Positions 27,460 to 53,263 are shown, counted from the first letter of the stretch. The stretch is DNA of 64,000 nt from an uncultured Gammaproteobacteria bacterium (GCA_964507055.1 CAZDOJ010000001.1:401313-465312), one strand, 5' to 3'. Made by a program: numbers and translations. The notes: a model not told the origin generated them from the letters alone.

Positions 27460-27492
27460 AGTATCATTAAATTAATCTTTTGTCAAGTCTAT
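27460..27492 (-). promoter_or_regulatory. sigma70-like promoter (TTGACA-17-TACTAT) for the second deacetylase gene
   Basis: Minus-strand sequence CTTGACAAAAGATTAATTTAATGATACTATGAG, upstream of the start at 27411. Confidence 0.4.
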
Positions 27493-27528
27493 AGGATAAC
27501 TCATAGTTATAAAATTGTAATGCTAATT

Positions 27529-28113: not shown

Positions 28114-28129
28114 ATTATTATTAATTTAA

Positions 28130-28315
28130 TTATTTAGTACGATTTACTAAATAACGACTGATTTGACCTGCTAAGATAACAAGCCATACGACATTAAGTA
28201 CTATAAAACCTGCTAATACTATTGGGTTACTAAAGTCAGCAAAAAATGCTCCTGCTGCTGAAGTAGCCGGTAATACCGCTGCGCCTAATACTTGTCCTTT
28301 TCCGTAATCTGTCAT
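28130..28315 (-). CDS. small (61 aa) membrane protein with the LPATSAAG motif (paralog of 20475-20654)
   Basis: RBS AAAGGAGAAACT upstream of the ATG at 28315. Sequence: MTDYGKGQVLGAAVLPATSAAGAFFADFSNPIVLAGFIVLNVVWLVILAGQISRYLVNRTK. The raw ORF 28130-28471 carries an artifactual N-terminal extension that overlaps the GT2 gene. Confidence 0.6.
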   Translation of the reverse strand: MTDYGKGQVLGAAVLPATSAAGAFFADFSNPIVLAGFIVLNVVWLVILAGQISRYLVNRTK

Positions 28316-28328
28316 AGTTTCTCCTTTC

Positions 28329-35836: not shown

Positions 35837-38476
35837 TTATTTCTTCGTCTTTAAGTTGGCATCAACCCACAGATTTGGTAAATCATTATTATAAAGAGCA
35901 GTTCCAAACCATGCCCAATTCTGTGTGTAATAACTCTTTGAATCTTCCCAATAACTTCCATCTTTATCTTCATAAAGCTTGTTAAGTACTTTGGTTTCGT
36001 AGATTTCTTTTGCAGCAGATTTATCTGTGACAACAAAGCTTGCGAGGTTTGCAGCATATGCACCAGCGGATTCATAATCTTCCCATGGTTTCCCATCATG
36101 TGTGTATGCAACACTGATCTTTTTATTATTTGCCCATTCTTTTCGCAGAAAGTCATTCTTTGTAAGATAGGACTTTGCTCGAGGTTCTTTGAACCATTGA
36201 TAGTCCAAAGCAATTCTCCATGGTGTACGGAAAGCGTCATAACTATATTCTGTTGAATCCAAACCTTTCTCTGGAGATTTAATAATTTTTCCACTACTAT
36301 CAACTGCACACCAATTTGGTGCAAGTCCAGCTGAAGTTTCTTTGTCTAAGTCGCTATCAGTACATGCATTCAAAACTTCATACGATGTGTCGACCAAACT
36401 CAACCAATTATGGGTTTTATCAATCTCAGCAAAAATCCTGTAACTACTTGGTGCGAGATATGATGGATTGATGATTGCTGTTGATTTTGGCTTCGCCCAA
36501 TCCCCTGCTACGAGATATGGTTTGCTTCGAACTACTTTTACTTCATTCTCCCAGATTGCTTGCATAATCGTCCGTGAATCGATGATGTAACCTGGATTAT
36601 TCCAACGCTTTCCAGCAAAAGCCAATGCTAAGGCAATATCTTCATCACCATCTGCAGCAGAACTTTTATCAATGATTCCCATTGTGCCATCTGGCTTCTT
36701 TCCCCATTTCCAAGCAATCAAATTGTTATCCTTTTGCATATTTCTTTTAGTGAATCCCCATGTCTTATCGAAGAGTTGTTTATCGTTCATCCATACTGCT
36801 CGTAACATGGTATATGATTGTCCTTCTGATGTTGTAGTATTATTTGCTGGATCGACAGTATCTCCATCATCTTTTACAAATGTATTTTTGTATGTTTCCC
36901 ATGTTGAGACAAGAATTCTTCGAGAATTCTTTACGGCCCAGATCTGGACGTACCAACCATCACCTGCGAAACTCGTAATCGGATTTGATTGTGCTAACGC
37001 ATTTCCCGTCATCGGAATTTCACCAGTTCCTAAGTCTCCGCCAATAAGTGGTGTAAATAAGACATAATCAATATTGTTGTAATCATTTTTTAATATCTTT
37101 TCTTTAATATCTTTGTCTCCATCCACTTTCCAATAATATTCAGCATTGGCGAAGTTGCCGTTATTTCTATAGTTCAAATCAAGATATGCATAGTTATCAA
37201 TCGCATAGAATGCATTTGGAGATTGTTTACTCAAAATCCAATTAACAGCTTCTATCTGAGCATTGGTTTCGTTGGATGTGTAGATATTGAAATTACCTGA
37301 ACGGACATTGCCTGAATAATTAAATACAAGTACTCCCATATATATAATGAATGCCATAATAGGAAAAATCGCATAAATTTGAAGCGGCCAGAATTTCATC
37401 CTTGTAAAGAAACTCGCAATTTTATGTGTGACGTACGCAGTTGTTAAAGCAACAAGCGGCACAAGCGGAATGATATAGAATTCAAGTACCAATCCTCCTC
37501 TTAGTAAGAACGCCCAATAAGAAATCGCAAGTCCTGCAATGATACGAGCAGCTACGCTTCTGATAGCAAATATCATTGTAATAATTGTAGATATTGCACC
37601 AACGATCATGAATGACGGATCATCATTTTTCCAGTTCCCTGTCATTTCCCAGAAACTTGAGCCAGGATTGAAGATACTGACGTTTCCGCGACTACCCTGG
37701 AATTGCAGTGTACCAAGTAAACTTACGTGCTCATTATTTCCTCCCAAAAGTGTTCCCGATGGGAAAAATTCGCCTTTAAACATACTAAATATAAAGTACA
37801 GTGAAATAATTGCTCCTGCTACTGCAATCCATTTAATTGCACCAAATAATCGATTGATCTTATGCAATTGAGAATACACAAGAACAGCCATAAATGGGAG
37901 AAAGAAAATCGCACTTTCTTTACTCAGGACTGCGATTCCAAAACTCACCGCACTGGCAATAATCCATCGCAATCTTTGTTTACTAAAGAGTACAAATGTC
38001 ACAGAAAGCAGAAGCCAAAATACCATTATGTTATCCAGCAATACACGTCGTTGGAAATAAATGGCCAGTGGCGAGAGTGAGAACATAAGCACAGCAAATG
38101 CTCCCACAAGCTTAGATCCGGTTATCTTCTTACCAATAAAATACAGTAATAATGCTGATCCGATATGGAGGAGCAGCATCAGTACACGACCAGAGTTAAT
38201 AGCAAACCCAAAGGTAAAAAGACCCCCGGTTATTTTTAACCATAAAGCAATGAGCATCCAACCTACAGGAGCATGATCATACCAATATGTGTACGGTGCA
38301 AGTTTTCCATCATTGATGATCGCCCATGCTTGAGACATGTACGTACCTTCATCAGATTCATAATATGGATAGCCCAACATGTTATATCCATGAGAAATAG
38401 CAGCAATTGCCAAAAGGCCGAATACCAAAAGATATTCCATTTTATGACTAGTAAATAATTCTTTTATCTTTTTCAT
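35837..38476 (-). CDS. fusion of a GT-C (PMT/ArnT-like, GT39/83) membrane glycosyltransferase with a C-terminal glycoside hydrolase family 8-like domain
   Basis: N-terminal half: multiple TM helices with the YYESDEGTY (DE loop) motif and HAPVGW. C-terminal ~400 aa: TTSEGQSYTM (GH8 SEGQSYGM-like) and AADGDEDIALALAFAGKRW (close to the GH8 signature A-[ST]-D-[AG]-D-x2-[IM]-A...). Confidence 0.7.
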   Translation of the reverse strand: MKKIKELFTSHKMEYLLVFGLLAIAAISHGYNMLGYPYYESDEGTYMSQAWAIINDGKLAPYTYWYDHAPVGWMLIALWLKITGGLFTFGFAINSGRVLMLLLHIGSALLLYFIGKKITGSKLVGAFAVLMFSLSPLAIYFQRRVLLDNIMVFWLLLSVTFVLFSKQRLRWIIASAVSFGIAVLSKESAIFFLPFMAVLVYSQLHKINRLFGAIKWIAVAGAIISLYFIFSMFKGEFFPSGTLLGGNNEHVSLLGTLQFQGSRGNVSIFNPGSSFWEMTGNWKNDDPSFMIVGAISTIITMIFAIRSVAARIIAGLAISYWAFLLRGGLVLEFYIIPLVPLVALTTAYVTHKIASFFTRMKFWPLQIYAIFPIMAFIIYMGVLVFNYSGNVRSGNFNIYTSNETNAQIEAVNWILSKQSPNAFYAIDNYAYLDLNYRNNGNFANAEYYWKVDGDKDIKEKILKNDYNNIDYVLFTPLIGGDLGTGEIPMTGNALAQSNPITSFAGDGWYVQIWAVKNSRRILVSTWETYKNTFVKDDGDTVDPANNTTTSEGQSYTMLRAVWMNDKQLFDKTWGFTKRNMQKDNNLIAWKWGKKPDGTMGIIDKSSAADGDEDIALALAFAGKRWNNPGYIIDSRTIMQAIWENEVKVVRSKPYLVAGDWAKPKSTAIINPSYLAPSSYRIFAEIDKTHNWLSLVDTSYEVLNACTDSDLDKETSAGLAPNWCAVDSSGKIIKSPEKGLDSTEYSYDAFRTPWRIALDYQWFKEPRAKSYLTKNDFLRKEWANNKKISVAYTHDGKPWEDYESAGAYAANLASFVVTDKSAAKEIYETKVLNKLYEDKDGSYWEDSKSYYTQNWAWFGTALYNNDLPNLWVDANLKTKK

Positions 38477-38479
38477 AGT

Positions 38480-40705
38480 TTATCTATTTACTGTAAAATA
38501 TCGAGCATTTACTTTTGCTGGTGACGGAACAGACTTCTCTGGTCGATGTGCATTAAGATGCAAAGTCTTTTCCCAACTATCTTGTCCGACAGCAAGTCGA
38601 TAAATCGCACGCATTGCACTAAAACCTAAAATAATTTGGAATGGATAGAATGTATACAAAACTTTTAACGGAATCCAGAAAGGATACTTTAAGCTATATC
38701 CTTTTGTGAATTCAAACAAACCGACATTGTATGCAATCAACTGAAGGATTAGAAGGAGTAACGGAACAATGGTAATCATCGCGAAGACAACAGGTAAATC
38801 AAGTACAAATGCCATAAAGATAGATACAGGCAACATCAAGAAAAAGAATGCCTGCAACTGAGGAATAAGTAAAATATATGCCGCAAGAAATCGCTGTGAT
38901 GCTTTTGGTAAGTTAAGCCATTCTCCCTTAAGAAAGATCTGAATAAATCCTTGATTCCATCGGGTTCGTTGCTTAATGAAACTTTCAAGACTATGTGGTG
39001 TTTCTTCCTGAGTGGTATGACGCTCATCATACACGACGCCAATTCTCGCACCGCGTGCACTTAATCGGATACCAATATCTGCATCCTCGGTCAGACAATC
39101 CTCGTCCCATCCTCCAATTTTATTTAATAAGTTTCTTTTGAAAAATACAGTATTTCCACCCAATGGAATAATTCCTTGTTTGGCAAAATAGTGAAGTGAT
39201 GATTTAAACCAAAAGAAATACTCAAGTACATTGAGTGATGAGAACCACTTTGATCGGAAGTTCATAAGTTGTACGCCGGACTGCAGAACATCAAACCCAC
39301 GAAGTGTCATTTCAGTATTCACAAGATTATAAATCCCGCGACTTGGTTGATCTTCCGCATCAAAAACGGTAACAACATCTTTCGTAGCATGACGAAGACC
39401 AATGTTCAAACTGTGCGGTTTGTTAATTGGCATATCACCAAAGATAAGTAATTTAACATTTGGTTTATTCAGACGTGCAATTGTTCGTTCAGCTTTTTCC
39501 CGCGTTTTGTGATCATCAGATCGTACAATTACTAATAGTTCTTTCAAGCTTTCAGGATAATCAATTGCTGCTATTGCTCGGATAGTATCCCCAATAACAT
39601 GCTCTTCATGTCGTACAGGAAGTAACGCAGTAAAAGAATATTTCGGTTTAAGAAATTTCTCTGGTGGCTTTTCTTTTTGGATTCGCTCAACATCTTCCCA
39701 TCCATAAATCATCAGATAAATACTGAAAACGCTTTGCCAGATCATCAATGCAGAAAGGCTCACAATTGCAACAGAAATCATGGATTGAGTATTTATCATC
39801 CCAGCATCACGCAAACCAAACAATGTTAAGGCTGCAAAATTCCCGAGAATAAATGCGGTAATTGCGATACATCCTGCCACAAATATCATCCCAATATGAG
39901 CCAAAAATGGAAATCGAATCAAGAAAGAATTGGCTATGAATTCGATAATATCTTGCTTTCTGAGCTTGGAATTCCCGAAAACTCGGTCGGTAAATTGTAT
40001 TGGAATTTCCTTAATACGTGCATTACTTTTTATAGCTTTATGGAGTAAATCAATCTGGAAAGCATACCCCTTAGACATAAGATTGTTAAGATTAATTCGT
40101 TTTAAGAGTGATGTACGAATAGCACGATATCCACTTGTACAATCCTTTATCTTGCCTAAGCCGGCCACGTGACGTGCAAAGAGGTTCCCCCACTGACTAT
40201 TGAGCTTACGAATAAGAGGCCAGTTACCAGGGATTGAACCTCCATCGATATATCGTGAACCGATGACAAAGTCACTACCTTTTTGAATTTCATAAACGAA
40301 GAATGAAATCATGGCTGGATCGTGAGATAAATCTGCATCCATTTCAAAGACTATATCCGCATGCATATATCGCATAGCATATTTAAATCCACGTATATAA
40401 GCATTTCCTAAGCCCTGTTTTCTTCCTCGTAGAAGGTACATGTTTTTGTATTTCTTGGCTAACTTCATAACTATTGAAGCAGTACCATCAGGAGAGCCAT
40501 CGTCTACGACAAGGATAGATAGCTTTGCATTATGGAGATATCGTACCTGAGATTGAATTTCGGTAATTAATTGTTCGATATTATCTTTTTCGTTATATGT
40601 GGGTACAACAATAACCACGTGATCCTTTTCGAGATCCGGGTTAATAGGCTGTGTTCTGTAAAACCGCTGGTACAGGTTTGTATATTTACTTCGTGCGCGA
40701 ATCAT
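38480..40705 (-). CDS. bifunctional membrane glycosyltransferase: DPM1-like polyprenol-phosphate sugar synthase GT2 fused to a processive (BcsA/chitin-synthase-like) GT2
   Basis: Domain 1: VVPTYNEKDNI, VVDDGSPDGT, DADLSHDP. A TM block follows. Domain 2: FDAEDQP, TEDADIG (TED) and QRTRWNQG (QxxRW), then further TM helices. Confidence 0.85.
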   Translation of the reverse strand: MIRARSKYTNLYQRFYRTQPINPDLEKDHVVIVVPTYNEKDNIEQLITEIQSQVRYLHNAKLSILVVDDGSPDGTASIVMKLAKKYKNMYLLRGRKQGLGNAYIRGFKYAMRYMHADIVFEMDADLSHDPAMISFFVYEIQKGSDFVIGSRYIDGGSIPGNWPLIRKLNSQWGNLFARHVAGLGKIKDCTSGYRAIRTSLLKRINLNNLMSKGYAFQIDLLHKAIKSNARIKEIPIQFTDRVFGNSKLRKQDIIEFIANSFLIRFPFLAHIGMIFVAGCIAITAFILGNFAALTLFGLRDAGMINTQSMISVAIVSLSALMIWQSVFSIYLMIYGWEDVERIQKEKPPEKFLKPKYSFTALLPVRHEEHVIGDTIRAIAAIDYPESLKELLVIVRSDDHKTREKAERTIARLNKPNVKLLIFGDMPINKPHSLNIGLRHATKDVVTVFDAEDQPSRGIYNLVNTEMTLRGFDVLQSGVQLMNFRSKWFSSLNVLEYFFWFKSSLHYFAKQGIIPLGGNTVFFKRNLLNKIGGWDEDCLTEDADIGIRLSARGARIGVVYDERHTTQEETPHSLESFIKQRTRWNQGFIQIFLKGEWLNLPKASQRFLAAYILLIPQLQAFFFLMLPVSIFMAFVLDLPVVFAMITIVPLLLLILQLIAYNVGLFEFTKGYSLKYPFWIPLKVLYTFYPFQIILGFSAMRAIYRLAVGQDSWEKTLHLNAHRPEKSVPSPAKVNARYFTVNR

Positions 40706-41055
40706 CGTACATTACGGGCAGTAAATGTGTGGGCAGCATTGATGAGCTTAATCGTATAGTTATATACTATAAGTCAACAAAAGCTGAGTATATTATAGTT
40801 GGAGGCATATGTCAAGCTACGCTATACTACTATATAGAGGGTTTTTCTGAAGAAATGTAATTTATCCAATTGACAGAAAAGAAAATAATATGGTATACAT
40901 GAAGTCTGCCAAGGTATTTAATACGATTAATAAAAAAGATTATCTACCTCTCATACTATAAGTTTTAATTAGGGATTGGAGACCCTGTACTTATTCATCA
41001 ACTATTTCGCTACGATTGCGTCTGTCTACTCATTGAAGCGAGCTTAGTATGGTAC

Positions 41056-41084
41056 TTGACAATTACATAAATATCCTATAATAT
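41056..41084 (+). promoter_or_regulatory. candidate sigma70-like promoter (TTGACA-17-TAATAT) for the 41140 gene, in a 434-nt divergent intergenic region
   Basis: TTGACA at 41056-41061 and TAATAT at 41079-41084; an overlapping TATAAT at 41077-41082 would imply a 15-nt spacer. Confidence 0.35.
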
Positions 41085-41139
41085 ACACATTAATTCGATA
41101 TTATGGGATATAAAAACGAGTATCGAAGACGTAACGAAT

Positions 41140-44100
41140 ATGCAAAATAATCAACAAATGATAAGTGTCGTAGTACCAGTTTATAATGAAATTGGTATCA
41201 TCATGCAATTCCATGAACAATTGCTTTTGACACTTTCTTCTTCTAATCGATCTTATGAGATCATCTATGTTGATGATAATTCTACAGACGGTACTTTCGA
41301 ATGGCTCCAAAGCATCACTAATGACTCTATTAAGGTTGTACGTAAAGTAGGCACAAAAGGTAAGGCATACTCTTTAATGCAAGGGTTTGAAATCGCTCAA
41401 GGCGAAATCCTCGCAATGATTGATGGAGATTTACAATACCCTCCTGCGAAAATTCCTGAGATGGCTGATGCATTGCAAAACGCTGATATTATTGTCGCAA
41501 ATAGAAAAGACTATAAGGACTCAAAAATGAGAAAACTTTTAAGCCGTGGATTTAGAAATATTTTTGGCAAAATGTTATTTGGTCTACAAACAGATATCCA
41601 ATCAGGACTTAAAGTATTTAAGAAAGAAGTTTATGATACTGTCAAATTTCAACCAGTGTCACCTTGGACTTTTGACCTAGAGTTTCTCCACCGAGCAAAG
41701 CAAGCAGGATATACATTAAAGAACGTAGAAATCGTTTTTGCACCACGCCGAAATGGTCAATCAAAAATGAATGTTGTAAAACAATCATACGAGATTGGTG
41801 CGAATGCATTAAATATCAAAATGAAACCTGTCACCTACTTCGCGATAAAACCTGAAGAAGGTACGATGCGTGGTGCAGGTGTACAAGCAAAGAATAAAAA
41901 ATACATTACTCATACAACTCTTCCATCTGCTCTTTCTGCTATTGAAACATTTACTTTTGGACAAAAGGTATTCTTTATCGGAGCACCAATCCTTTTATTA
42001 TTAGCATTCTTCTTAATCCCTTTACAAGCAGCTAGAATCACTGTCGGAGTTTTAAGTGTCCTGTACTTCATTGATGCACTATTCAATATATATGTTGTAG
42101 GAAAAAGTTTGCATAAGGAACAAGAAATTGATGTAACTGATGCAGAACTTGCAACAATTGATGAAGCAACGCTTCCAACATACACTATTCTTTGTCCTTT
42201 ATATAGAGAAGCCCACGTTGTTCCTCAGTTCTTGGAAGGTATTTCAAAAATCGATTGGCCAAAAGAAAAGCTTGATGTGATGTTTCTTCTTGAAGAAGAC
42301 GATAAAGAAACGATTGCAGAGTTTGAAAAAATGAACTTACCATTCTATGCCCGAACTGTTATCGTTCCTGATTCACAACCAAAGACAAAACCAAAGGCTT
42401 GTAACTATGGACTTTCATATGCCAAAGGTGAATACCTCGTTATCTTTGATGCCGAAGATGTACCAGATCCAAGACAGTTGAAAGTTGCATATCTTGGATT
42501 CAAAAAGGCACCAAGTGATGTGAAATGTCTGCAAGCGAAATTGAGTTATTACAACTCACGATATAACGTCTTAACTCGATTCTTTACTGCTGAATATGCA
42601 TTGTGGTTTGACGTCACATTGCCTGGTTTGCAGTCTTTAAACTCAGCACTTCCACTCGGTGGTACAAGTAACCATTTCTTAACTGAAAACTTGCGAGAAC
42701 TTCAAGGTTGGGATCCATTTAACGTGACTGAAGATGCTGACTTGGGTGTACGTTTATTCCAACACGGATATCGTACAGCGGTTATTAAATCAACAACATA
42801 TGAAGAAGCAACAAGTGTACGTAAAGTATGGTTGAAACAACGATCTCGATGGATCAAAGGATACATGCAAACCTATTTGGTACATATGCGAGATTTGCCT
42901 AAATTCGTAAAACAAGTTGGTTTGTGGCACAACTTTATCTTCCAATTAACTGTTGGAGGAAAGATTTTATTTGTCCTTTTGAATCCGTTCATGTGGGTTA
43001 TCACAGCTTTGTACTTCTTAGCAAATCCCGTATTTGGACCAATCATGGAAGCAATTTATCGCCCACCAGTATCATATATTGCGGTCTTCTCATGGATATT
43101 TGGTAACTTTATGTTCTTATATTGTTACATGATCGCTGTCGGTAAACGAAAAGATTGGGATCTTGCAAAGTATGTTCTTTTGATTCCTTTGTACTGGGTA
43201 ATGATGAGTACTGCAGCGATGATCGCGTTATACCAATTGATCTTGAAACCCCACTATTGGGAAAAGACATTGCATGGATTCCATCTTGGTCGAAAGGTTG
43301 AAGATGCCAAAGCACCTGCTCCGACACCAGCACCAATACCAGTTGTACAGCCAGCGTATGCACCAGCTGTAGTAAATAAACCAGGCGTTCAATTACCATC
43401 TCTATCATTCAAGATGCCAGCTATTACAATGCCTACGATCACATTGCCAAATGCCGGTAGTTTGTATGCAAAAGTACTGCATGTATTGCCTATCTTTGCA
43501 TTACTTAATGTCGACTTATTACTTGCTCATGCATTCTTAGCACCAGCTGAAGCACAAACATATTTAGTATTGTCACTTATCGGAAAAGCAAGTTTCATCG
43601 CGAGCCAAGTTGGATCAAATGTTATCGCTGGATTATTATCCCGAGGTAGATCTGCAACAAATCATTTCTTTAAATTAGTATTCTTTACATTCTTATTTAA
43701 CTGGATTGCATATATTGTGCTTGGACTTGAAGGTCAATACTTCATCCCTACCATCTTTGGTACAGGCTATGACGGAATCATCGCATATATGCCATTCTAT
43801 ATGTTTGCATTGCTTTGTTTCGCTATCGCAAACCGATTCAATGCATTCCATTTGCAGAAAAAGAATTATGCATACACAGGAATCTCACTTGCAACTATCT
43901 TAGCATTCGTTCCATTTATCTTAGTAAACAACGAAACAATTTCTGATTACGTTCGAACATTTGCATATCTCGGATCGATCAACTTGTTCTTCGTCGTCGT
44001 AATGCACTTGAGTAATCCATATATCCGAGTCATGGAAAACAACCTCGCAAGTTTTGTTGCTCTCTTTGACAAACAAAAATCTAAAAAAGTTTGGAAAGAC

Positions 44101-45270
44101 AATGGAATGAAAATCCTTATCTTCAACTGGAGAGATACCAAACATATCTATGCAGGAGGTGCTGAAGTATATATCAATGAATTAGCAAAACGATGGGTAA
44201 AAAATGGAAATAAAGTAACACTCTTTAGTGGTAACGATAATAGAAACTTATTCTACGAGAATGTTAATGGAGTTGAAGTATATCGAAGAGGTGGAACATA
44301 CACTGTGTACTTCTTTGCAGTCATGTACTATCTTTTGAAGTTCCGAGGTAAATATGATGTGATCATCGATTGTGAAAATGGTATTCCATTCTTTATGCCA
44401 CTTTTTGCAAAAGAACAAGTAATTTTACTCGTTCACCATGTTCATCAAGAAATCTTCCGAAAGTTCTTGAAGTTCCCGATGAGTATCGTTGCTGAAATGC
44501 TTGAAGGAAAAGTAATGCCATTTATTTACCAAAATAAAAATGTTGTTACTGTCTCCGCATCTTCACAAAGTGAGATATTTAATCTTGGTTTTACTAACTC
44601 CGGTAATATCGCAATTATTCCAAATGGTGTTGATGAGACACTGTACGTTGATTATCCAAAGACTGATCATCCTTCATATGTGTATCTTGGACGATTGAAA
44701 GAATACAAAAATATCGATGTTGCAATCAAAGCATTCTCTAAAGTTTTGAAAGTACATAAGAATGCTACATTATCTATTGTCGGTACAGGAGAAAGTTATT
44801 ACGAACTCAGACAATTAGTTGAAGAACTCGGAGTATCAAACGCTGTGACATTCCATGGTCGAGTAACTGAAAAAGAAAAAGCACGATTGCTTTCCCAAAG
44901 TTGGGCAGCATTGCAGCCATCACAAATGGAAGGCTGGGGAATAACTGTCATCGAAGCGAATGCAACTGGAACTCCAGTTATCGCATCACGAGTTAATGGA
45001 TTACAAGACTCTGTCATCGATAATCAAACAGGTATGCTTGTCCCAGCTGGTGATGTTGCGGCCTTTGCAATTGCGATGAGAAAATTAGCCGACAATGATT
45101 TACTCAGAGTCTCACTTGCAAATGAAGCTCGAAAATGGGCTCAAAACTTTAACTGGGATAAAAGTGCTGAACAGTTCTATACTTTAATTGGACGTAACTT
45201 TGGCCAAGGAGCAATCAGTCCTGCATATACCAATGTGGTTTTCAGTACTGAGAAAGGAGCAAACAATTAA
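41140..45270 (+). CDS. 1376-aa tri-domain glycosyltransferase: DPM1-like GT2 + processive GT2 + multi-TM block + C-terminal GT4
   Basis: Domain 1: VVPVYNE, VDDNSTDGT, DGDLQYPP. Domain 2: FDAEDVPD, VTEDADLG and QRSRWIKG. About 10 TM helices follow. Domain 3 carries the GT4 EX7E motif region EGWGITVIEANATGTPVIASRVNGLQDSV. Confidence 0.85.
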   Translation: MQNNQQMISVVVPVYNEIGIIMQFHEQLLLTLSSSNRSYEIIYVDDNSTDGTFEWLQSITNDSIKVVRKVGTKGKAYSLMQGFEIAQGEILAMIDGDLQYPPAKIPEMADALQNADIIVANRKDYKDSKMRKLLSRGFRNIFGKMLFGLQTDIQSGLKVFKKEVYDTVKFQPVSPWTFDLEFLHRAKQAGYTLKNVEIVFAPRRNGQSKMNVVKQSYEIGANALNIKMKPVTYFAIKPEEGTMRGAGVQAKNKKYITHTTLPSALSAIETFTFGQKVFFIGAPILLLLAFFLIPLQAARITVGVLSVLYFIDALFNIYVVGKSLHKEQEIDVTDAELATIDEATLPTYTILCPLYREAHVVPQFLEGISKIDWPKEKLDVMFLLEEDDKETIAEFEKMNLPFYARTVIVPDSQPKTKPKACNYGLSYAKGEYLVIFDAEDVPDPRQLKVAYLGFKKAPSDVKCLQAKLSYYNSRYNVLTRFFTAEYALWFDVTLPGLQSLNSALPLGGTSNHFLTENLRELQGWDPFNVTEDADLGVRLFQHGYRTAVIKSTTYEEATSVRKVWLKQRSRWIKGYMQTYLVHMRDLPKFVKQVGLWHNFIFQLTVGGKILFVLLNPFMWVITALYFLANPVFGPIMEAIYRPPVSYIAVFSWIFGNFMFLYCYMIAVGKRKDWDLAKYVLLIPLYWVMMSTAAMIALYQLILKPHYWEKTLHGFHLGRKVEDAKAPAPTPAPIPVVQPAYAPAVVNKPGVQLPSLSFKMPAITMPTITLPNAGSLYAKVLHVLPIFALLNVDLLLAHAFLAPAEAQTYLVLSLIGKASFIASQVGSNVIAGLLSRGRSATNHFFKLVFFTFLFNWIAYIVLGLEGQYFIPTIFGTGYDGIIAYMPFYMFALLCFAIANRFNAFHLQKKNYAYTGISLATILAFVPFILVNNETISDYVRTFAYLGSINLFFVVVMHLSNPYIRVMENNLASFVALFDKQKSKKVWKDNGMKILIFNWRDTKHIYAGGAEVYINELAKRWVKNGNKVTLFSGNDNRNLFYENVNGVEVYRRGGTYTVYFFAVMYYLLKFRGKYDVIIDCENGIPFFMPLFAKEQVILLVHHVHQEIFRKFLKFPMSIVAEMLEGKVMPFIYQNKNVVTVSASSQSEIFNLGFTNSGNIAIIPNGVDETLYVDYPKTDHPSYVYLGRLKEYKNIDVAIKAFSKVLKVHKNATLSIVGTGESYYELRQLVEELGVSNAVTFHGRVTEKEKARLLSQSWAALQPSQMEGWGITVIEANATGTPVIASRVNGLQDSVIDNQTGMLVPAGDVAAFAIAMRKLADNDLLRVSLANEARKWAQNFNWDKSAEQFYTLIGRNFGQGAISPAYTNVVFSTEKGANN

Positions 45271-46169
45271 TGAAACCAGTAACAGTATCAGTAGGAATTC
45301 CTGCATATAATGAAGGTAAGAACATTCAGCGATTGTTGTTATCTCTTCTTGCACAAAAAGAAAATGGTATCGTCTTGAAAGAAATTATTGTGGTATCTGA
45401 TGGCAGTAGTGATGACACAGCAAAGAAGGTAAAAGCAATTAAAGATAAAAGAATTGTATTTAAAAATGATGGCAAGCGTCTTGGTAAATCCGCACGCATG
45501 GATCAGATCTTTCGAATGATAAAAGGTGACGTCTTACTCCTTATGGATGCAGATATTGTGATCCATGATCAATCGCTTTTCTCCAAGGTTGTCCGACGAG
45601 CGAAGCTTGAGAAATCAGGTATTGCCGGAGTAAATGTCCTTCCATTAAAAGCTGAAGTGTTTTTTGAAGAGATTATTGAAACAGGTGTACTTATCATGAA
45701 AGATATTGCAAAGAATTGGAATGTTGGACGAAATTACCTTTCATTCAAAGGGGCTTTCTTAGCTCTCAATGGCGATTTCGCACGGTCTATTCATATTCCA
45801 GCAAGTATTGTAAACAATGACCCTTATTTGTATTTTGCGGCTGTTGAAAAGGGATTCAAGCCAACATATATCGCAAGTTGTGAAGTATACTATCGTTCAC
45901 CAATGACATTGAGTGATCATATTAAACAGTCCTCAAGATTTCAAGGATCGAGAGAAGAACTTTCAAAATACTTCACCTTAGATTGGGAGAAAGAATATAC
46001 GATGCCAGTTGCAATCGTCATAAAAAGTATCTTAAAATCAATTGGTACCCGTCCTTTCCATTTCGGCCTTTATAGCCTAGTTAACGTCATTTCTAAATTC
46101 AAAAGACAAACGAAACTTAAAAGCACCTGGAGTATCGCAAGCTCCACAAAAGGAAAAATCAGTATATGA
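45270..46169 (+). CDS. family-2 glycosyltransferase
   Basis: VGIPAYNEGKNI and VVSDGSSDDT. The start overlaps the previous stop (TAATG). Confidence 0.8.
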   Translation: MKPVTVSVGIPAYNEGKNIQRLLLSLLAQKENGIVLKEIIVVSDGSSDDTAKKVKAIKDKRIVFKNDGKRLGKSARMDQIFRMIKGDVLLLMDADIVIHDQSLFSKVVRRAKLEKSGIAGVNVLPLKAEVFFEEIIETGVLIMKDIAKNWNVGRNYLSFKGAFLALNGDFARSIHIPASIVNNDPYLYFAAVEKGFKPTYIASCEVYYRSPMTLSDHIKQSSRFQGSREELSKYFTLDWEKEYTMPVAIVIKSILKSIGTRPFHFGLYSLVNVISKFKRQTKLKSTWSIASSTKGKISI

Positions 46170-47257
46170 GCAGAGATAAATACGAAAGCCTTCCTATTCT
46201 TCATTTTGCGGAACAGATCAAAAAGAAACATGCTAAAAAATCCCTCAAATGCATTATCTTTGGTAATTTTGGTGCAATGAATCTCGGAGATGAGGCTATA
46301 CTTGCCGGCGAAATTACAGAATTGCAAAAAATACCAAACCTCAATATTACAGTTATTGGAAAGTTCCCGAAGGAAGTACATAAAATGCATAAAGTACCGG
46401 CCATTTCAATGTACGATTTATACAAAGTACGAAAAGAAATCAAGAAATCTGATTTCGTCGTTATAGGTGGTGGTGGACTTATCAATAAGATTGAGCGAAG
46501 TTTTAATGGCTTTTTGTTCCAGCTGTATATGATTTTTACCTTTTTCTTCCTTCCACGCTCATATAAGAAAAGACTTTATATAACTGGAATTGGTATTTAT
46601 AATAATGCCAATCCATTGATCGTCAAACTTGTCCTTCCTTTCTTTCGAGGAGCAACACTGCTTACAGTACGAGATGCACATTCACATGAGTTCCTAAAGC
46701 ATAAAAATGTACATGCTGGTCTTTATAAGGATAATAGTTTCCTCATGGAGCAAATTGCGAAAGATGATGTTTTGAAGCACGATTTCTTCAAAAAGCACTA
46801 TCAGAAGGCACGAATGAATATCGGTATTTCACTGGTCAAACCAGACAGTAAGAAAGATGAGAAGCGACTAATGGAAGAAGTCAAAAAATTCATTAAAGAG
46901 TATCACGAAAAAGCTGATTTCTGGCTCTATGCAACGGACGCAAATCCTGTCTATCATAATGATCTTATGATCGGCAACAAGTTGATTGAGGAACTGAAGA
47001 AGGAGTATGGTGAAGCTATAACCTTCCATATCGTTCCTACAAATCTTTCTCCAAAAGTATATTTTTCATCGTTTAAGTTGATGGATTTCATGATTGCTAT
47101 GCGTTTTCATGCTGCAGTATTTGCGTATAGAAACAAAATTGCCTTTGCAGGCATACCATATGACAAAAAATGTACCAGCTTTATTACGTCTGTAGGTAAG
47201 AAACCAATTAACCTCAAAACTATCACGCATGCAGATATCAGTAAAAACGTCTCATAG
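46166..47257 (+). CDS. polysaccharide pyruvyl transferase (CsaB/WcaK family)
   Basis: The GNFGAMNLGDEAILAGE (GxxNxGDxxI) signature, a GGGGL motif, and the family-typical length. Confidence 0.75.
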   Translation: MSRDKYESLPILHFAEQIKKKHAKKSLKCIIFGNFGAMNLGDEAILAGEITELQKIPNLNITVIGKFPKEVHKMHKVPAISMYDLYKVRKEIKKSDFVVIGGGGLINKIERSFNGFLFQLYMIFTFFFLPRSYKKRLYITGIGIYNNANPLIVKLVLPFFRGATLLTVRDAHSHEFLKHKNVHAGLYKDNSFLMEQIAKDDVLKHDFFKKHYQKARMNIGISLVKPDSKKDEKRLMEEVKKFIKEYHEKADFWLYATDANPVYHNDLMIGNKLIEELKKEYGEAITFHIVPTNLSPKVYFSSFKLMDFMIAMRFHAAVFAYRNKIAFAGIPYDKKCTSFITSVGKKPINLKTITHADISKNVS

Positions 47258-47325
47258 TTTGACTTCTGAGGCTAGAATGCGTATAATGTCATCAGTTCAT
47301 ATACATATGATTCAGGCAAAAAATT

Positions 47326-48141
47326 ATGAAAAAGCTTATCTTTACAGTACTAACAAAAGCTCGACAAATAGCATATAGATCACTTGCTCAGTTTGACCGC
47401 ACAATTACCAAGAGTACCAATCAGATATTTGTCCTTTCTTATCACAGTATCGCAAATGATGATTGGCGTTTTAGTGTCTCTGAAAAAGCACTCAAGCAAC
47501 AGATCGAATATCTTCAAAAACACTTTACTATCATCACACTGCAAGATCTTCAAAACCACATCACAGGAAAAAAGAGTATAACCTCCCCTTCAGTCGTCTT
47601 GACGTTTGATGACGGATATAGCGATATCTTAAAGTGGAAAGATTACTTCAAGAAGAAAAAAATTACTCCAGCGTTGTTTATCCTTTCAAATACCAAAACT
47701 CCTAACTGGAAAGAGCTCGGAACAAAAAGAAGATTCCTTACACCAGGCGAAATAAAGTCGCTGCTTACATTAGACTGGGAAATTGGCAGTCATAGTGCTA
47801 CACATGCTAACCTTGCTACATTGACCAATGACCAATTGCAAGAAGAAATTGTCGAAGCAAAGAAACAATTGGAGAAAGCTATTGGAAATAAGGTGAAGTA
47901 CTTTGCATATCCAAGAGGTAAATATGACCAAAATGTAGTACGCTATATAAAGAAAGCAAAATACTCTATGGCACTTACCATGGATGATGGCTTTATACAA
48001 CAAGATATGGATATGTTGAGAATTCCTCGAATCGGAATCGACAATACACATTCTTTTGAAGAGTTTAAAACAACATTTTCTCCTTCGGTTGTCCGACTGA
48101 GAAAAGTTATTAAAGAAAGTCCAGTAGGTAAATATTTATGA
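47326..48141 (+). CDS. polysaccharide deacetylase (CE4/NodB)
   Basis: VVLTFDDGY, GSHSATHANL and YFAYPRGKYD motifs. Confidence 0.85.
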   Translation: MKKLIFTVLTKARQIAYRSLAQFDRTITKSTNQIFVLSYHSIANDDWRFSVSEKALKQQIEYLQKHFTIITLQDLQNHITGKKSITSPSVVLTFDDGYSDILKWKDYFKKKKITPALFILSNTKTPNWKELGTKRRFLTPGEIKSLLTLDWEIGSHSATHANLATLTNDQLQEEIVEAKKQLEKAIGNKVKYFAYPRGKYDQNVVRYIKKAKYSMALTMDDGFIQQDMDMLRIPRIGIDNTHSFEEFKTTFSPSVVRLRKVIKESPVGKYL

Positions 48142-52384: not shown

Positions 52385-52516
52385 AATTATCTTCAATTTA
52401 ATTAGCAATCTAGTACTGAGCATTTAAAAATCATTAGAACTTTGGTACTTTGTCGATACAAAGTACAGCTAAAATCACATTAAACATCCCATATTTAATA
52501 CTCTTAATATAAACTA

Positions 52517-52589
52517 TTAGCCTCAAAATACTTTATTTTTATTGAGAATATAACTACCCCTTGACATCCCATAATATTTATAGTACAAT
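52517..52589 (+). promoter_or_regulatory. TTAGCCTCAAA motif followed by a sigma70-like promoter TTGACA-17-TACAAT
   Basis: Motif at 52517-52527; TTGACA at 52561-52566 and TACAAT at 52584-52589. Confidence 0.45.
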
Positions 52590-52636
52590 CCTATAACATT
52601 TAATATAGGCTTATTTAAATGCCTAGAAATAAATAT

Positions 52637-53251: not shown

Positions 53252-53263
53252 GGAGGTACTTCA

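What the first reader, a model, noticed from the sequence alone, without database searches (positions are those of the whole stretch)
35837..45270. Divergently transcribed giant fused glycosyltransferases: GT-C-GH8 fusion, GT2-GT2 fusion and a 1376-aa GT2-GT2-GT4 tri-fusion
Three consecutive very large genes each fuse catalytic modules that are normally separate proteins. One joins a PMT/ArnT-like GT-C membrane transferase to a GH8-like hydrolase domain (GH8 is the BcsZ family of cellulose operons). The other two each place a DPM1-like polyprenol-phosphate-sugar synthase in the same polypeptide as a processive BcsA/chitin-synthase-like GT2 with TED and QxxRW. The largest adds a C-terminal GT4 as well. 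Putting the lipid-linked donor synthase and the polymerising or transferring enzyme in one chain implies a channelled assembly line for a surface glycan. Downstream genes (GT2, pyruvyl transferase, CE4, two GT-C, GH) would decorate and trim it. This set of fusions matches no described cellulose, PNAG or teichoic-acid type locus.
Basis: partly seen in the sequence, partly recalled or inferred. Interest (0 to 1): 0.7.

Follow-up and report, generated by a model that had tools for sequence, protein, structure and literature searches.

The report
Fused surface-glycan assembly enzymes in CPR bacteria
Three very large genes in a probable Levybacteria (candidate phyla radiation) genome really do fuse enzymes that are usually separate, and comparison with relatives suggests they join a cellulose-synthase-like enzyme to a lipid-linked sugar decoration system for building the cell surface.

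Summary
All three ORFs are intact and carry the claimed domains. Each fusion recurs in more than 100 diverged full-length homologues, nearly all from Patescibacteria/CPR, so none is an assembly chimera.

- The 1376-aa protein holds a fourth module, the C-terminal half of a Wzx/MOP flippase. Its 1560-1570-aa relatives carry the whole flippase.
- Chloroflexota encode the minus-strand pair unfused, as DPMS-like GT2, GtrA flippase, synthase-like GT2, then GT-C (with or without GH8). The fusions therefore weld a classical three-component glycosylation system onto a synthase-like GT2.
- Related GT-C proteins carry GH5 where this one carries GH8.

My best reading is that the N-terminal GT2 makes a polyprenyl-phosphate sugar, the operon's GT-C uses it outside the membrane, the second GT2 makes a beta-linked backbone, and GH8 binds or trims it.

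Two caveats apply. The synthase-like module has fewer membrane helices than the minimal cellulose-synthase core. The plus-strand operon also conserves a sortase-anchored Ser/Thr-rich protein, so protein O-glycosylation remains a real rival.

All parts belong to known families. The wiring appears undescribed in the literature I could search.

The parts
37307..38476 (-). ORF1 aa 1-390: GT-C membrane glycosyltransferase core (PMT/PMT_2-like, about 11 TM helices). The acidic D42-E43 motif sits in the first outside loop.
   Evidence: Pfam PMT 41.8 bits and PMT_2 41.9 bits. Hydropathy. D42, E43, D67, H68, R143, D148, K186, E187 are invariant in 71/71 homologues.
36923..37306 (-). ORF1 aa 391-518: extracytoplasmic post-TM domain shared with GT-C proteins that lack GH8.
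   Evidence: hhalign of the 49726-51357 family against the ORF1 family aligns through ORF1 position ~547 (prob 98.4%). tblastn finds matches to this segment after the GT-C in L003 and L008.
35840..36922 (-). ORF1 aa 519-879: GH8 domain, inferred to be extracytoplasmic because it follows the GT-C core. Catalytic residue equivalents are present in this protein.
   Evidence: Pfam GH8 2.8e-47. Best PDB hit is C. thermocellum CelA 1cem at 1.1e-30, with E551, the DGDED (609-613) acidic cluster (aligned to CelA DADED) and D747 aligned to the CelA acidic residues. Across the family E551 is 68/71, D611 is 71/71, and position 747 is D in 38 and N in 31.
39911..40705 (-). ORF2 aa 1-265: DPMS-like polyprenyl-phosphate sugar synthase domain (GT2).
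   Evidence: PDB 5mlz DPMS 2.5e-37 over aa 29-296, ArnC 3.8e-11, GtrB 1e-5. Foldseek 5mlz 8.6e-17. N38, E39, D68 and R151 are invariant in 71/71, and D123 and D125 of the DAD motif are kept in 70/71.
39695..39910 (-). ORF2 aa 266-337: two long helices forming a TM hairpin. This places both GT2 domains on the same (cytoplasmic) side.
   Evidence: AlphaFold model, pLDDT 90.6, helices 267-300 and 306-337. Hydropathy.
38483..39694 (-). ORF2 aa 338-741: cellulose-synthase-like GT2 (GT2b) with D, DAED, TED and QRTRW motifs, an interface helix, three further long helices and a conserved WEKTxH tail.
   Evidence: Pfam. BcsA 1.6e-8 by sequence. Foldseek BcsA 3e-15 and hyaluronan synthase TMt up to 0.60. 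PgaC_IcaA 122.6 bits, below the 422 cut-off. Motifs invariant. Helices 573-593, 602-634, 639-669, 678-705.
40706..41139 (.). Divergent intergenic region with outward-facing promoter-like sites.
   Evidence: TTGACA-17-TATACT on the minus strand at 40815-40787, and TTGACA-17-TAATAT on the plus strand at 41056-41084. These are consensus matches only and are not enriched over shuffles.
41140..41949 (+). ORF3 aa 1-270: polyprenyl-phosphate sugar synthase-like GT2 (DPMS/GtrB/PgfS-like).
   Evidence: PDB 5mlz 5.2e-21, GtrB 7.9e-15, ArnC 9.5e-14. NCBIfam PgfS 83.7 bits.
41950..43251 (+). ORF3 aa 271-704: TM hairpin plus synthase-like GT2 (DAED, TEDAD, QRSRW) plus helices and a HYWEKTxHG tail. It is a paralogue of the ORF2 module at about 26-29% identity.
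   Evidence: (BcsA 4.6e-14).
43252..43452 (+). ORF3 aa 705-771: Pro/Ala-rich disordered linker. It occupies the position of the flippase N-lobe found in longer relatives.
   Evidence: pLDDT below 50 for model residues 436-502. The alignment to P0094 skips P0094 722-968.
43453..44064 (+). ORF3 aa 772-975: about six TM helices homologous to the C-terminal half of a Wzx/MOP (Polysacc_synt_3) flippase domain.
   Evidence: BLASTP against P0094 residues 969-1205, 29% identity, E 8e-30. P0094 and P0075 carry PF13440/PF01943 across about 760-1080. Helices in the model. The window segment has no Pfam hit of its own.
44107..45267 (+). ORF3 aa ~990-1376: GT4 (GT-B, MshA/BshA/PimA-like retaining glycosyltransferase).
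   Evidence: Pfam Glycos_transf_1 1.1e-39 and Glyco_transf_4. Foldseek MshA and BshA TMt about 0.80, rmsd 3-4 A.
45270..48141 (+). Co-oriented downstream genes: GT2 (299 aa), CsaB-like pyruvyl transferase (363 aa) and CE4 deacetylase (271 aa).
   Evidence: Syntenic in L082.
48138..49736 (+). 532-aa polytopic membrane protein, a possible GT-C.
   Evidence: About 7+ TM regions with a large first loop. NCBIfam LA_3751/3752 putative GT 3.3e-10. Weak similarity to the next gene. Conserved in L082, L085 and L086. GT-C status is not demonstrated.
49726..51357 (+). 543-aa GT-C glycosyltransferase related to the ORF1 GT-C core. It is the probable user of the lipid-linked sugar made by the ORF3 N-terminal domain.
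   Evidence: 41 of 69 homologues hit PMT_2. hhalign to the ORF1 family gives prob 98.4%, E 5.5e-15. Longer family members carry a C-terminal GH5.
51389..53797 (+). Conserved operon tail: a 331-aa membrane-anchored protein of unknown fold, a 210-aa secreted protein with a Thr/Pro-rich stalk and LAPTG sorting signal, and a sortase.
   Evidence: The same order follows ORF3-family genes in L085 and L086.

Best explanation
The locus encodes two paralogous membrane glycan-assembly modules. In each, a classical three-component extracytoplasmic glycosylation system has been welded onto a cellulose-synthase-like GT2.

Minus-strand module (ORF2 then ORF1):
- The N-terminal DPMS-like domain of ORF2 charges polyprenyl phosphate with a hexose on the cytoplasmic face. 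Mannose is the best guess.
- The second GT2 domain of ORF2 sits on the same side of the membrane behind a two-helix hairpin. It makes a beta-linked backbone and feeds it outward.
- After the lipid-linked sugar is flipped, the GT-C domain of ORF1 transfers it onto an acceptor outside the membrane, most likely that backbone.
- The GH8 domain fused to the GT-C holds and/or trims the beta-1,4 chain, as BcsZ does for cellulose.

Plus-strand module (ORF3 operon): the logic is the same but more elaborate. ORF3 combines the lipid-sugar synthase, a synthase-like GT2, a remnant half flippase and a cytoplasmic GT4. It is followed by a GT2, a pyruvyl transferase, a CE4 deacetylase and one or two GT-C enzymes.

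Shown: the domain identities, conservation of the catalytic motifs, conservation of the fusions, the unfused ancestral-type gene order, and the same-side topology of the two GT2 domains in ORF2.

Inferred: the sugar, the polymer, the acceptor, who flips the lipid-linked donor, and processivity.
For: 1. Domain identities come from Pfam, NCBIfam, PDB sequence searches and Foldseek.
2. Catalytic motifs of both GT2 domains, the GT-C DE motif and the GH8 acid are invariant or nearly so across 71 homologues at 42-89% identity. Every module is therefore under selection.
3. Rosetta-stone evidence: the Chloroflexota loci L041 and L003 encode the same proteins as separate adjacent genes. The order is DPMS-like GT2, GtrA (PF04138, E 7e-29 and 4e-27), GT2b, GT-C, and in L041 the GT-C already carries GH8.
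4. A Patescibacteria locus, L083, has the fused pair followed by GtrA, near NTP_transferase/cupin, GMPPB-like and PGM/PMM genes that suggest (my inference from Pfam domain content) GDP-mannose supply.
5. GT2b followed directly by a homologous GT-C is seen in 13 loci from Patescibacteria, Chloroflexota and Actinomycetota. About 22 contig lengths are shared between the ORF1 and ORF2 homologue lists, which suggests the same contigs.
6. There is a glycanase link. In Ktedonospora the pair is flanked by a GH5 cellulase with CBM3, and by GH113 in L084. Relatives of the second GT-C carry C-terminal GH5 instead of GH8. This mirrors BcsZ (GH8) and CcsZ (GH5) in cellulose synthase operons (PMC8892547).
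7. The AlphaFold model of ORF2 (pLDDT 90.6, pTM 0.79) shows exactly two TM helices between the GT2 domains.
8. Three-component systems are established (PMC8035078), and one is reported with a proposed, not directly tested, MATE/MOP-family flippase (PMC11127046). This matches the full Wzx domain found in ORF3's longer relatives.
Against: - No biochemical data exist for any member.
- GT2b ends after 2+2-3 membrane helices, whereas the minimal cellulose-synthase core has 6 TM helices (PMC8892547). It may therefore not translocate a polymer on its own, or may not be processive.
- GT2b scores far below the PgaC_IcaA and CelA family cut-offs, so the product is unknown.
- No GtrA is found in the window, and the ORF3 flippase remnant is only half a domain, so the flipping step is unassigned.
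- The GH8 base position is Asn in 31 of 71 family members, so hydrolysis may not be the conserved role of that domain.
- The plus-strand operon conserves a sortase substrate with a Ser/Thr-rich stalk, which points to a protein acceptor there.
- Membrane-side parity for ORF3 (3 + 6 helices between GT2b and GT4) only works if one helix is an interface helix. That is an assumption.
Confidence: 0.5

Rival explanations
1. Protein O-glycosylation machinery of the Pgf or Ppm1/Pmt type. The DPMS/PgfS-like domains make lipid-linked sugars. The PMT-like GT-C enzymes transfer them to Ser/Thr-rich stalks of secreted, sortase-anchored proteins. The synthase-like GT2, GT4 and GH8 modules serve a separate glycan.
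For: - ORF1 passes the Pfam PMT threshold and keeps the PMT-type DE motif in loop 1.
- The ORF2 N-domain is much closer to DPMS than to GtrB, and the ORF3 N-domain's best lipid-sugar-synthase family is PgfS.
- The plus-strand operon ends with one confirmed GT-C (49726-51357), a second polytopic candidate (48138-49736), a secreted protein with a Thr/Pro-rich stalk and LAPTG signal, and a sortase. This tail is conserved behind ORF3-family genes in L085 and L086.
- S. mutans Pgf has the same parts list: a GT-A PgfS, two GT-Cs and wall-anchored Ser/Thr-rich adhesins encoded in the cluster (PMC12041528).
Against: - It does not explain why the GT-C is fused to GH8 or GH5 polysaccharide-cleft domains in two independent ways.
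- It does not explain why GT2b and GT-C are adjacent in three phyla, including loci with no sortase substrate nearby.
- ORF1 lacks the PMT_4TMC/MIR features of true GT39 enzymes.
- The minus-strand pair has no conserved protein substrate next to it.
Confidence: 0.22
2. Lipid-primed synthase with en bloc transfer. The DPMS-like domain makes a polyprenyl-phosphate hexose that serves as the primer. The fused GT2b elongates it, the lipid-linked chain is exported, and the GT-C transfers the chain (or GH8 cuts and releases it) onto a wall or protein acceptor.
For: - Covalent fusion of the lipid-sugar synthase to GT2b in both paralogous families places its product beside the GT2b active site.
- GT2b has too few TM helices for a stand-alone channel (PMC8892547).
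- The ORF2 model shows high fold similarity to PcManGT (6yv7, TMt 0.74). From my own knowledge, not checked here, PcManGT is a minimal cellulose-synthase-like GT2 acting on lipid-linked acceptors.
- A whole flippase is inserted in the 1570-aa relatives.
Against: - In Chloroflexota the two GT2s are separate genes with GtrA between them. GtrA is the signature of monosaccharide donor flipping.
- Known GT-C enzymes of the PMT/ArnT class transfer single sugars from monophosphate carriers.
- The Foldseek output does not show which ORF2 domain aligns to PcManGT.
Confidence: 0.13
3. The fusions have no functional meaning beyond gene compaction in small CPR genomes. The domains act independently in unrelated pathways, and the GH8 is a nutritional cellulase.
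For: - CPR genomes are small.
- Metagenomic surveys count CPR GH8 as cellulases for carbon degradation (PMC12153355).
- Neighbouring genes differ between lineages.
Against: - The same partners sit adjacent, unfused, in large-genome Chloroflexota and Actinomycetota.
- The GH8 is tethered to a membrane GT-C in every one of more than 100 homologues.
- An independent GH5 fusion exists on a related GT-C.
- The catalytic residues of all modules are co-conserved.
Confidence: 0.07

Closest known systems
Three-component extracytoplasmic glycosylation systems (GtrB/GtrA/GtrC of O-antigen, CsbB/GtcA/YfhO of teichoic acids, the MATE-flippase pentofuranose systems; PMC8035078, PMC11127046)
   Same: A GT2 polyprenyl-phosphate sugar synthase and a GT-C transferase sit in one operon. 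The unfused relatives have GtrA between them. Longer ORF3 relatives carry a MOP-superfamily flippase.
   Different: Here the lipid-sugar synthase is covalently fused to a synthase-like GT2, and in ORF3 also to a flippase remnant and a GT4. The GT-C is fused to a glycoside hydrolase. No small flippase is found in the window. Known systems decorate polymers made by Wzx/Wzy or ABC-transporter routes, not by a synthase.
Bacterial cellulose synthase operons (BcsA with BcsZ GH8; clostridial CcsA with CcsZ GH5; PMC8892547)
   Same: A membrane GT2 with D, DxD, TED and QxxRW motifs and a BcsA-like fold is paired with a GH8 (or GH5) endoglucanase-family domain outside the membrane.
   Different: There is no BcsB, PilZ or c-di-GMP module. 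Only 4-5 membrane helices are present instead of the 6-8 of BcsA. The glycanase is fused to a GT-C. The GT2 scores far below the CelA and BcsA family thresholds, and the GH8 is below the BcsZ threshold.
PgaCD/IcaAD poly-N-acetylglucosamine synthases with CE4 deacetylases
   Same: PgaC_IcaA is the best-scoring NCBIfam model for both GT2b modules, covering nearly the whole model. The helix layout is similar, small and 2+3. A PgaB/IcaB-like CE4 lies in the ORF3 operon.
   Different: Scores of 94-123 bits fall well short of the 422 cut-off. There is no PgaD or IcaD. GH8 is not a PNAG hydrolase family.
Protein O-glycosylation by Ppm1/Pmt in actinobacteria (from my own knowledge) and by Pgf in Streptococcus mutans (PMC12041528)
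   Same: A DPMS/PgfS-like GT2 is combined with PMT-type GT-C enzymes carrying the loop-1 DE motif. A wall-anchored Ser/Thr-rich protein is encoded in the plus-strand operon.
   Different: The PMT_4TMC domain is absent. The GT-C carries a polysaccharide hydrolase domain. A synthase-like GT2 is always adjacent.
Multi-domain glycosyltransferases such as the K4 chondroitin polymerase (two GT-A domains)
   Same: Two GT-A domains lie in one chain. The chondroitin polymerase appears among the Foldseek hits.
   Different: Those enzymes alternate two sugars in one soluble polymerase. Here one domain is a lipid-phosphate sugar synthase, and the chain is an integral membrane protein with up to four different modules.

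Membership tests
Polyprenyl-phosphate glycosyltransferases (DPMS/GtrB/ArnC-type GT2) | GT-A domain with DxD and significant similarity to solved members | tested here: met
   ORF2 N-domain against 5mlz 2.5e-37, and ORF3 N-domain 5.2e-21. ArnC and GtrB also hit. Foldseek 5mlz 8.6e-17. DAD is kept in 70/71.
Polyprenyl-phosphate glycosyltransferases (DPMS/GtrB/ArnC-type GT2) | Works with a GT-C transferase encoded nearby | tested here: met
   ORF1 lies 3 nt downstream of ORF2. The GT-C at 49726-51357 is in the ORF3 operon.
Polyprenyl-phosphate glycosyltransferases (DPMS/GtrB/ArnC-type GT2) | Dedicated small flippase (GtrA family) in the system | tested here: not met
   tblastn with two GtrA sequences finds nothing in the window. 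GtrA is present in the related loci L041, L003 and L083.
Polyprenyl-phosphate glycosyltransferases (DPMS/GtrB/ArnC-type GT2) | Formation of a polyprenyl-phosphate sugar | not testable with these tools
   Needs an enzyme assay.
Membrane-integrated processive GT2 synthases (BcsA/HAS/PgaC/chitin synthase) | D, DxD, TED and QxxRW motifs | tested here: met
   D398, D449-A-E-D452, T539-E-D541 and Q579-R-x-R-W583 are invariant in 71/71. The same motifs occur in ORF3.
Membrane-integrated processive GT2 synthases (BcsA/HAS/PgaC/chitin synthase) | Fold similarity to solved synthases | tested here: met
   BcsA 3e-15 to 5e-13, Xenopus and Chlorella-virus HAS TMt 0.45-0.60. By sequence, BcsA 4.6e-14.
Membrane-integrated processive GT2 synthases (BcsA/HAS/PgaC/chitin synthase) | Minimal core of 6 TM helices: 2 before the GT domain, 2 before the gating loop, 2 after (PMC8892547) | tested here: not met
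   The ORF2 model has 2 helices before the GT domain and 3 after it, and the protein then ends. A conserved WEKTxH tail resembles the FxVTxK gating loop, but this is an untested lead.
Membrane-integrated processive GT2 synthases (BcsA/HAS/PgaC/chitin synthase) | Reaches a curated family threshold (PgaC_IcaA, CelA, NodC) | tested here: not met
   PgaC_IcaA 122.6 and 93.8 bits against a cut-off of 422. CelA 63 and 56 against 699.
Membrane-integrated processive GT2 synthases (BcsA/HAS/PgaC/chitin synthase) | Processive polymer synthesis and translocation | not testable with these tools
   Needs product analysis.
GT-C glycosyltransferases of the PMT/ArnT class (GT39/GT83-like) | PMT or PMT_2 profile above threshold, with a polytopic core | tested here: met
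   PMT 41.8 bits (cut-off 22.7) and PMT_2 41.9 bits (cut-off 26.1). About 11 hydrophobic segments.
GT-C glycosyltransferases of the PMT/ArnT class (GT39/GT83-like) | Conserved acidic motif in the first extracytoplasmic loop | tested here: met
   D42-E43 are invariant in 71/71.
GT-C glycosyltransferases of the PMT/ArnT class (GT39/GT83-like) | True GT39 protein mannosyltransferase features (PMT_4TMC or MIR domains) | tested here: not met
   Pfam shows no such hits at E <= 0.01.
Glycoside hydrolase family 8 | GH8 profile and similarity to solved GH8 enzymes | tested here: met
   PF01270 2.8e-47. CelA 1.1e-30, and BcsZ structures about 1e-20.
Glycoside hydrolase family 8 | Catalytic acid Glu and Asp residues (CelA E95, D152, D278; numbering from my own knowledge) | tested here: met
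   E551 aligns to the CelA Glu that is Gln in entry 1kwf. The DGDED (609-613) cluster aligns to CelA DADED, and D747 to the Asp of CelA DATRYGW. Across the family, position 747 is D in 38 and N in 31.
Glycoside hydrolase family 8 | BcsZ orthology (NCBIfam equivalog) | tested here: not met
   139.8 bits against a cut-off of 299.
GT4 (GT-B retaining glycosyltransferases) | Glyco_transf_4 plus Glycos_transf_1 profiles and a GT-B fold | tested here: met
   Foldseek MshA and BshA TMt about 0.80.
MOP-superfamily (Wzx/PST) flippases | Complete 12-14 TM domain matching Polysacc_synt profiles | tested here: not met
   The window segment has no Pfam hit. It aligns only to the C-terminal half of the domain in P0094. 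The complete domain is present in the 1558-1645-aa relatives.

The most novel reading that the evidence does not exclude
The synthase-like GT2 is an incomplete synthase that works only as a composite machine with its GT-C partner. The GT-C (and, in ORF3, the flippase-derived helices) would supply the missing part of the translocation path. It would graft lipid-linked sugars onto the chain as the chain emerges, or transfer a lipid-primed chain en bloc. The product would be a branched or protein-linked beta-glycan, made by a previously unrecognised hybrid of the synthase-dependent and three-component pathways that is widespread across the candidate phyla radiation.
Probability: 0.15. Interest if true: 0.8.

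Novelty: new variant of a known kind. Interest (0 to 1): 0.55.

Why it matters
- Almost nothing is known experimentally about how candidate-phyla-radiation bacteria build their surfaces, which mediate their attachment to hosts. These genes are conserved in the homologue sets recovered here (more than 100 listed per fusion, among 1,100-2,200 significant matches of all architectures), yet they are annotated only as 'glycosyltransferase' or 'glycosyl hydrolase family 8'.
- The fusions act as a Rosetta stone. They link a synthase-type GT2, a lipid-linked sugar donor system and an extracytoplasmic glycanase into one pathway. I found no description of that combination in the searchable literature.
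- GH8 and GH5 domains counted as 'cellulases' in CPR metabolic surveys (e.g. PMC12153355) may be membrane-tethered biosynthetic accessories rather than evidence of cellulose degradation.
- The same core gene pair occurs in Ktedonospora formicarum strain SOSP1-1, which I take to be a cultured isolate. That would make the hypothesis testable by genetics.

Tried and rejected
- **Assembly chimera or frameshift fusion:** rejected. Identical proteins occur on 6-9 contigs, and more than 100 diverged full-length homologues exist per fusion.
- **RNA elements:** no tRNA or Rfam family in the window.
- **GtrA in the window:** none found by tblastn.
- **Direct PDB sequence searches** with the 532-aa and 543-aa membrane proteins, and with ORF2 aa 560-741 (to test the gating-loop idea), returned nothing. 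A profile of the 543-aa family against PDB also gave nothing useful. The GT-C assignment for the 543-aa protein came instead from Pfam hits on homologues and from hhalign.
- **Genome-collection scan:** it was swamped by stand-alone DPMS genes because one search pattern lay in that domain. It sampled distribution rather than measuring it.
- **Foldseek on the ORF3 model:** dominated by GT4 hits, and uninformative for the half-flippase.
- **Literature:** searches for CPR with GH8, cellulose synthase, GT-C or fusion found no description of these proteins. An Actinoplanes paper that looked promising concerns different clusters.
- **Cluster look-up:** gave no organism names. The Levybacteria assignment rests on the names of the closest named homologues.
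- **Sugar identity:** not resolvable. DPMS similarity and sugar-nucleotide genes suggesting GDP-mannose supply in L083 hint at mannose, while a GlmU half-gene lies near ORF1 in the window.

Full report

Pfam confirms every domain call:
- ORF1 has PMT/PMT_2 at aa 67-225 and GH8 at aa 519-841 (E 2.8e-47).
- ORF2 has a Glycos_transf_2 domain (32-203) and a Glyco_tranf_2_3/Glyco_trans_2_3 domain (358-637).
- ORF3 has the same two GT2 types (9-165 and 346-627) plus a GT4 (1006-1344).

The translations show DAED, TEDAD and QRTRW/QRSRW in the second GT2 domains. ORF2 and ORF1 are co-oriented with a 3-nt gap. ORF3 diverges from ORF2 across 434 bp that contain outward-facing promoter-like hexamers. Such matches are not enriched over shuffled sequence.

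**2. Are the fusions genuine?**

Yes.
- The exact ORF3 protein is on 6 contigs, one longer than 1 Mb. ORF1 is on 9 contigs and ORF2 on 7, the longest 1,318,932 bp.
- Each architecture recurs full-length in more than 100 listed homologues. The ORF3 type shows 47-89% identity, the ORF1 type 42-89% and the ORF2 type 43-75%.
- The named homologues are Levybacteria, Woesebacteria, Pacebacteria, Magasanikbacteria, Parcubacteria or 'Patescibacteria group'.
- The window (about 37% GC, with sortases and many glycan genes) is therefore most likely from a Levybacteria-like member of the candidate phyla radiation. The closest named relatives are 68-75% identical.
- A 69%-identical relative keeps the entire divergent locus in the same order (L082).

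**3. What each module is**

*N-terminal GT2 domains.* These are polyprenyl-phosphate sugar synthases by similarity. ORF2 matches P. furiosus dolichol-phosphate mannose synthase at 2.5e-37 over aa 29-296, far better than ArnC (3.8e-11) or GtrB (1e-5). ORF3 matches DPMS at 5.2e-21, GtrB at 7.9e-15 and ArnC at 9.5e-14. Among lipid-sugar synthase families in NCBIfam, ORF3 scores best with PgfS.

*Second GT2 domains ('GT2b').* These match E. coli BcsA by sequence, at 4.6e-14 and 1.6e-8. Their best NCBIfam model is PgaC_IcaA, covering nearly the whole model, but at 94-123 bits against a 422-bit cut-off.

*The ORF2 model.* An AlphaFold model built on 71 homologues is confident (pLDDT 90.6, pTM 0.79). 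Foldseek finds DPMS, ArnC and GtrB for one half. For the other it finds BcsA, hyaluronan synthases and the archaeal PcManGT.

*GH8.* The GH8 domain is closest to C. thermocellum CelA (1.1e-30). It aligns E551, the DGDED acidic cluster at 609-613 (against CelA DADED) and D747 with CelA acidic residues. I take these, from my own knowledge of the numbering, to be the catalytic E95, D152 and D278. The E95Q mutant entry 1kwf differs from the query at exactly the E551 position.

*GT4.* The GT4 superposes on MshA and BshA with TM-score about 0.80.

*Selection.* Across 71-sequence alignments the catalytic motifs of both ORF2 domains are conserved. N38, E39, D68, R151 and every GT2b motif residue are 71/71, and D123 and D125 of the DAD motif are 70/71. 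In the ORF1 family the GT-C motif D42-E43 and D611 are invariant, and E551 is 68/71. All modules are under purifying selection.

**4.

Between GT2b and GT4 lie a Pro/Ala-rich disordered linker (aa 705-771) and about six membrane helices (aa 772-975). The 1558-1645-aa relatives of ORF3 carry a complete Wzx/MOP flippase domain at that position. For example, P0094 has Polysacc_synt_3 at 781-1080 with E 2.8e-14.

The window's helices align to the C-terminal half of that domain (P0094 969-1205, 29% identity, E 8e-30). The broader family is thus a four-part fusion of lipid-sugar synthase, synthase-like GT2, flippase and GT4. The 1376-aa lineage has replaced the flippase N-lobe by a linker.

**5. Comparative evidence for how the parts work together**

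A tblastn of the window's modules against loci fetched from species genomes shows GT2b directly followed by a homologue of the ORF1 GT-C (37-45% identity) outside the CPR. This occurs in Ktedonobacteria (L002 Ktedonospora formicarum, L004, L006, L008), in Micromonosporaceae and relatives (L005, L007) and in other Chloroflexota (L003, L041).

Two Chloroflexota loci encode the whole minus-strand module as separate, tightly packed genes. The order is DPMS-like GT2, GtrA (PF04138, E 6.8e-29 and 4.2e-27), GT2b, then GT-C. In L041 the GT-C already carries GH8.

In a distant Patescibacteria genome the fused pair is followed by GtrA. It sits near an NTP_transferase/cupin gene, a GMPPB-like gene and a PGM/PMM gene, which I infer from their Pfam domains to supply GDP-mannose (L083).

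GtrB-type synthase, GtrA-type flippase and a GT-C make up the established three-component route for adding sugars outside the membrane (PMC8035078). A variant with a proposed MATE/MOP-family flippase, inferred there from bioinformatics and genetic context, has been reported (PMC11127046). The simplest reading is that the lipid-linked sugar made by the fused N-terminal domain is the donor for the operon's GT-C, not a substrate channelled into the neighbouring cytoplasmic GT2.

**6. Evidence about the acceptor**

Three observations tie the GT-C to a polysaccharide.
- It is fused to a GH8 cleft domain in every one of more than 100 homologues.
- The second GT-C family of the locus (49726-51357) includes 850-900-aa members with a C-terminal GH5 'Cellulase' domain instead. 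That family was confirmed as GT-C because 41 of 69 homologues hit PMT_2, and hhalign to the ORF1 family gives 98.4% probability and E 5.5e-15.
- In Ktedonospora the unfused pair is followed by a GH5 cellulase with a CBM3 cellulose-binding module, and in a Magasanikbacteria locus by GH113.

GH8 (BcsZ) and GH5 (CcsZ) are exactly the two accessory glucanase families of cellulose synthase operons (PMC8892547). I therefore propose that GT2b makes a beta-1,4-type backbone, that the GT-C decorates it outside the membrane, and that the glycanase domain binds and/or trims it.

**7. Caveats on 'processive synthase'**

- The ORF2 model has two helices before the GT2b domain and three after it, and then the protein ends. 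The minimal cellulose-synthase core is described as six TM helices, two of them after the gating loop (PMC8892547). GT2b may therefore need partner helices, or may not translocate a polymer.
- A tail motif, W-E-K-T-x-H, is invariant in both GT2b families. It resembles the BcsA gating-loop motif FxVTxK and sits where that loop would be. This is a resemblance only, and a sequence search with that region found nothing.
- If the third post-GT helix is an interface helix, the ORF3 topology works out, with six flippase-derived helices returning GT4 to the cytoplasm. This is an inference from parity and is not shown.
- The GH8 position equivalent to the CelA base is Asp in 38 and Asn in 31 of 71 family members. 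The window's protein has Asp, but hydrolysis may not be the universally conserved role.

**8. The main rival**

The plus-strand operon continues with the 532-aa and 543-aa membrane proteins and a 331-aa anchored protein. It then encodes a 210-aa secreted protein with a Thr/Pro-rich stalk and an LAPTG-TM-RKSK sorting signal, followed by a sortase.

This tail, including a stalk protein with a Ser/Gly/Asn/Thr-rich region and an L(A/S)xTGN signal, follows the four-part ORF3 relatives in two other CPR genomes (L085 and L086).

The parts list matches the S. mutans Pgf system: a GT-A PgfS, two GT-Cs, and wall-anchored Ser/Thr-rich adhesins in the cluster (PMC12041528). Protein O-glycosylation is thus a serious alternative for the plus-strand GT-Cs. 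It does not explain the glycanase fusions or the GT2b-GT-C pairing in loci that lack such a protein.

**9. Novelty and verdict**

Every module belongs to a well-known family, and nothing here is categorically new. The new elements are these:
- covalent and syntenic coupling of a synthase-type GT2 to a three-component glycosylation system;
- GT-C-glycanase fusions arising with two different hydrolase folds;
- a four-part fusion that includes a flippase;
- the breadth of all this across the candidate phyla radiation.

Full-text searches found no description of these proteins. One survey counts CPR GH8 as degradative cellulases (PMC12153355).

I rate this a new variant of known kinds, of moderate to good interest. 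The mechanism is plausible but unproven. The core pair occurs in Ktedonospora formicarum strain SOSP1-1, which I take to be a cultured isolate and so a possible test organism.

Noticed in passing
window 52619-53797: A 210-aa secreted protein has a Cys-containing globular domain, a Thr/Pro-rich stalk and a C-terminal LAPTG + TM + RKSK sorting signal, and lies directly upstream of a sortase. Homologues with the same layout end the ORF3-type operon in two other CPR genomes.
   Followed up: partly
window 55624-57027: A 152-aa CarboxypepD_reg-like secreted protein ends in VPEFG-TM-RRRKI and sits next to an exosortase/archaeosortase-family gene. The best NCBIfam subtype for that gene is the VPEID-CTERM exosortase E. 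One CPR locus thus carries both sortase and exosortase sorting systems.
   Followed up: partly
window 20683-29591 (minus strand): Two PgaC/NodC-like GT2 genes (432 and 420 aa) bracket two very large proteins (781 and 965 aa) whose only recognisable domain is an N-terminal CE4 deacetylase, plus a sortase. A GH10 gene lies just beyond at 17960-19720.
   Followed up: no
window ~56000-64000: GC content drops from about 0.37 to about 0.29 over a Wzx-type glycan cluster (acyltransferase_3, Wzx-like flippase, GT2, three GT4). This may be a variable or acquired glycan island.
   Followed up: no
window 34114-34860 (minus strand): A 248-aa gene matches only the N-terminal uridyltransferase half of GlmU (203 bits against model positions 2-235 of 447). 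The acetyltransferase half is not attached.
   Followed up: no
ORF1 family alignment A3, column of window ORF1 residue 747: The GH8 position equivalent to the CelA catalytic base is split, Asp in 38 and Asn in 31 of 71 homologues, while the acid Glu and other Asp residues are conserved. Subfamilies may differ in mechanism, or some may have lost hydrolysis.
   Followed up: partly
proteins P0369, P0383, P0387, P0399, P0400, P0370 (relatives of window 49726-51357): GT-C proteins of 850-920 aa carry a C-terminal GH5 'Cellulase' domain, or another clan-A hydrolase core. This is a second, independent type of GT-C-glycanase fusion.
   Followed up: partly
proteins P0355, P0357, P0359 (relatives of ORF2): Some 902-aa members of the DPMS-GT2b fusion family also carry FHA domains (PF00498/PF16697). 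This hints at control by Ser/Thr phosphorylation.
   Followed up: no
protein P0362 (1065 aa): Residues 537-1057 match the 543-aa GT-C, and the N-terminal half has the size of the 532-aa neighbour. In some relatives the two adjacent membrane genes are probably fused.
   Followed up: no
L084 14904-16562: In a Magasanikbacteria locus the fused pair is followed by a GH113 (beta-mannanase family) gene. This leaves open that the backbone could be a mannan or glucomannan rather than a glucan.
   Followed up: no
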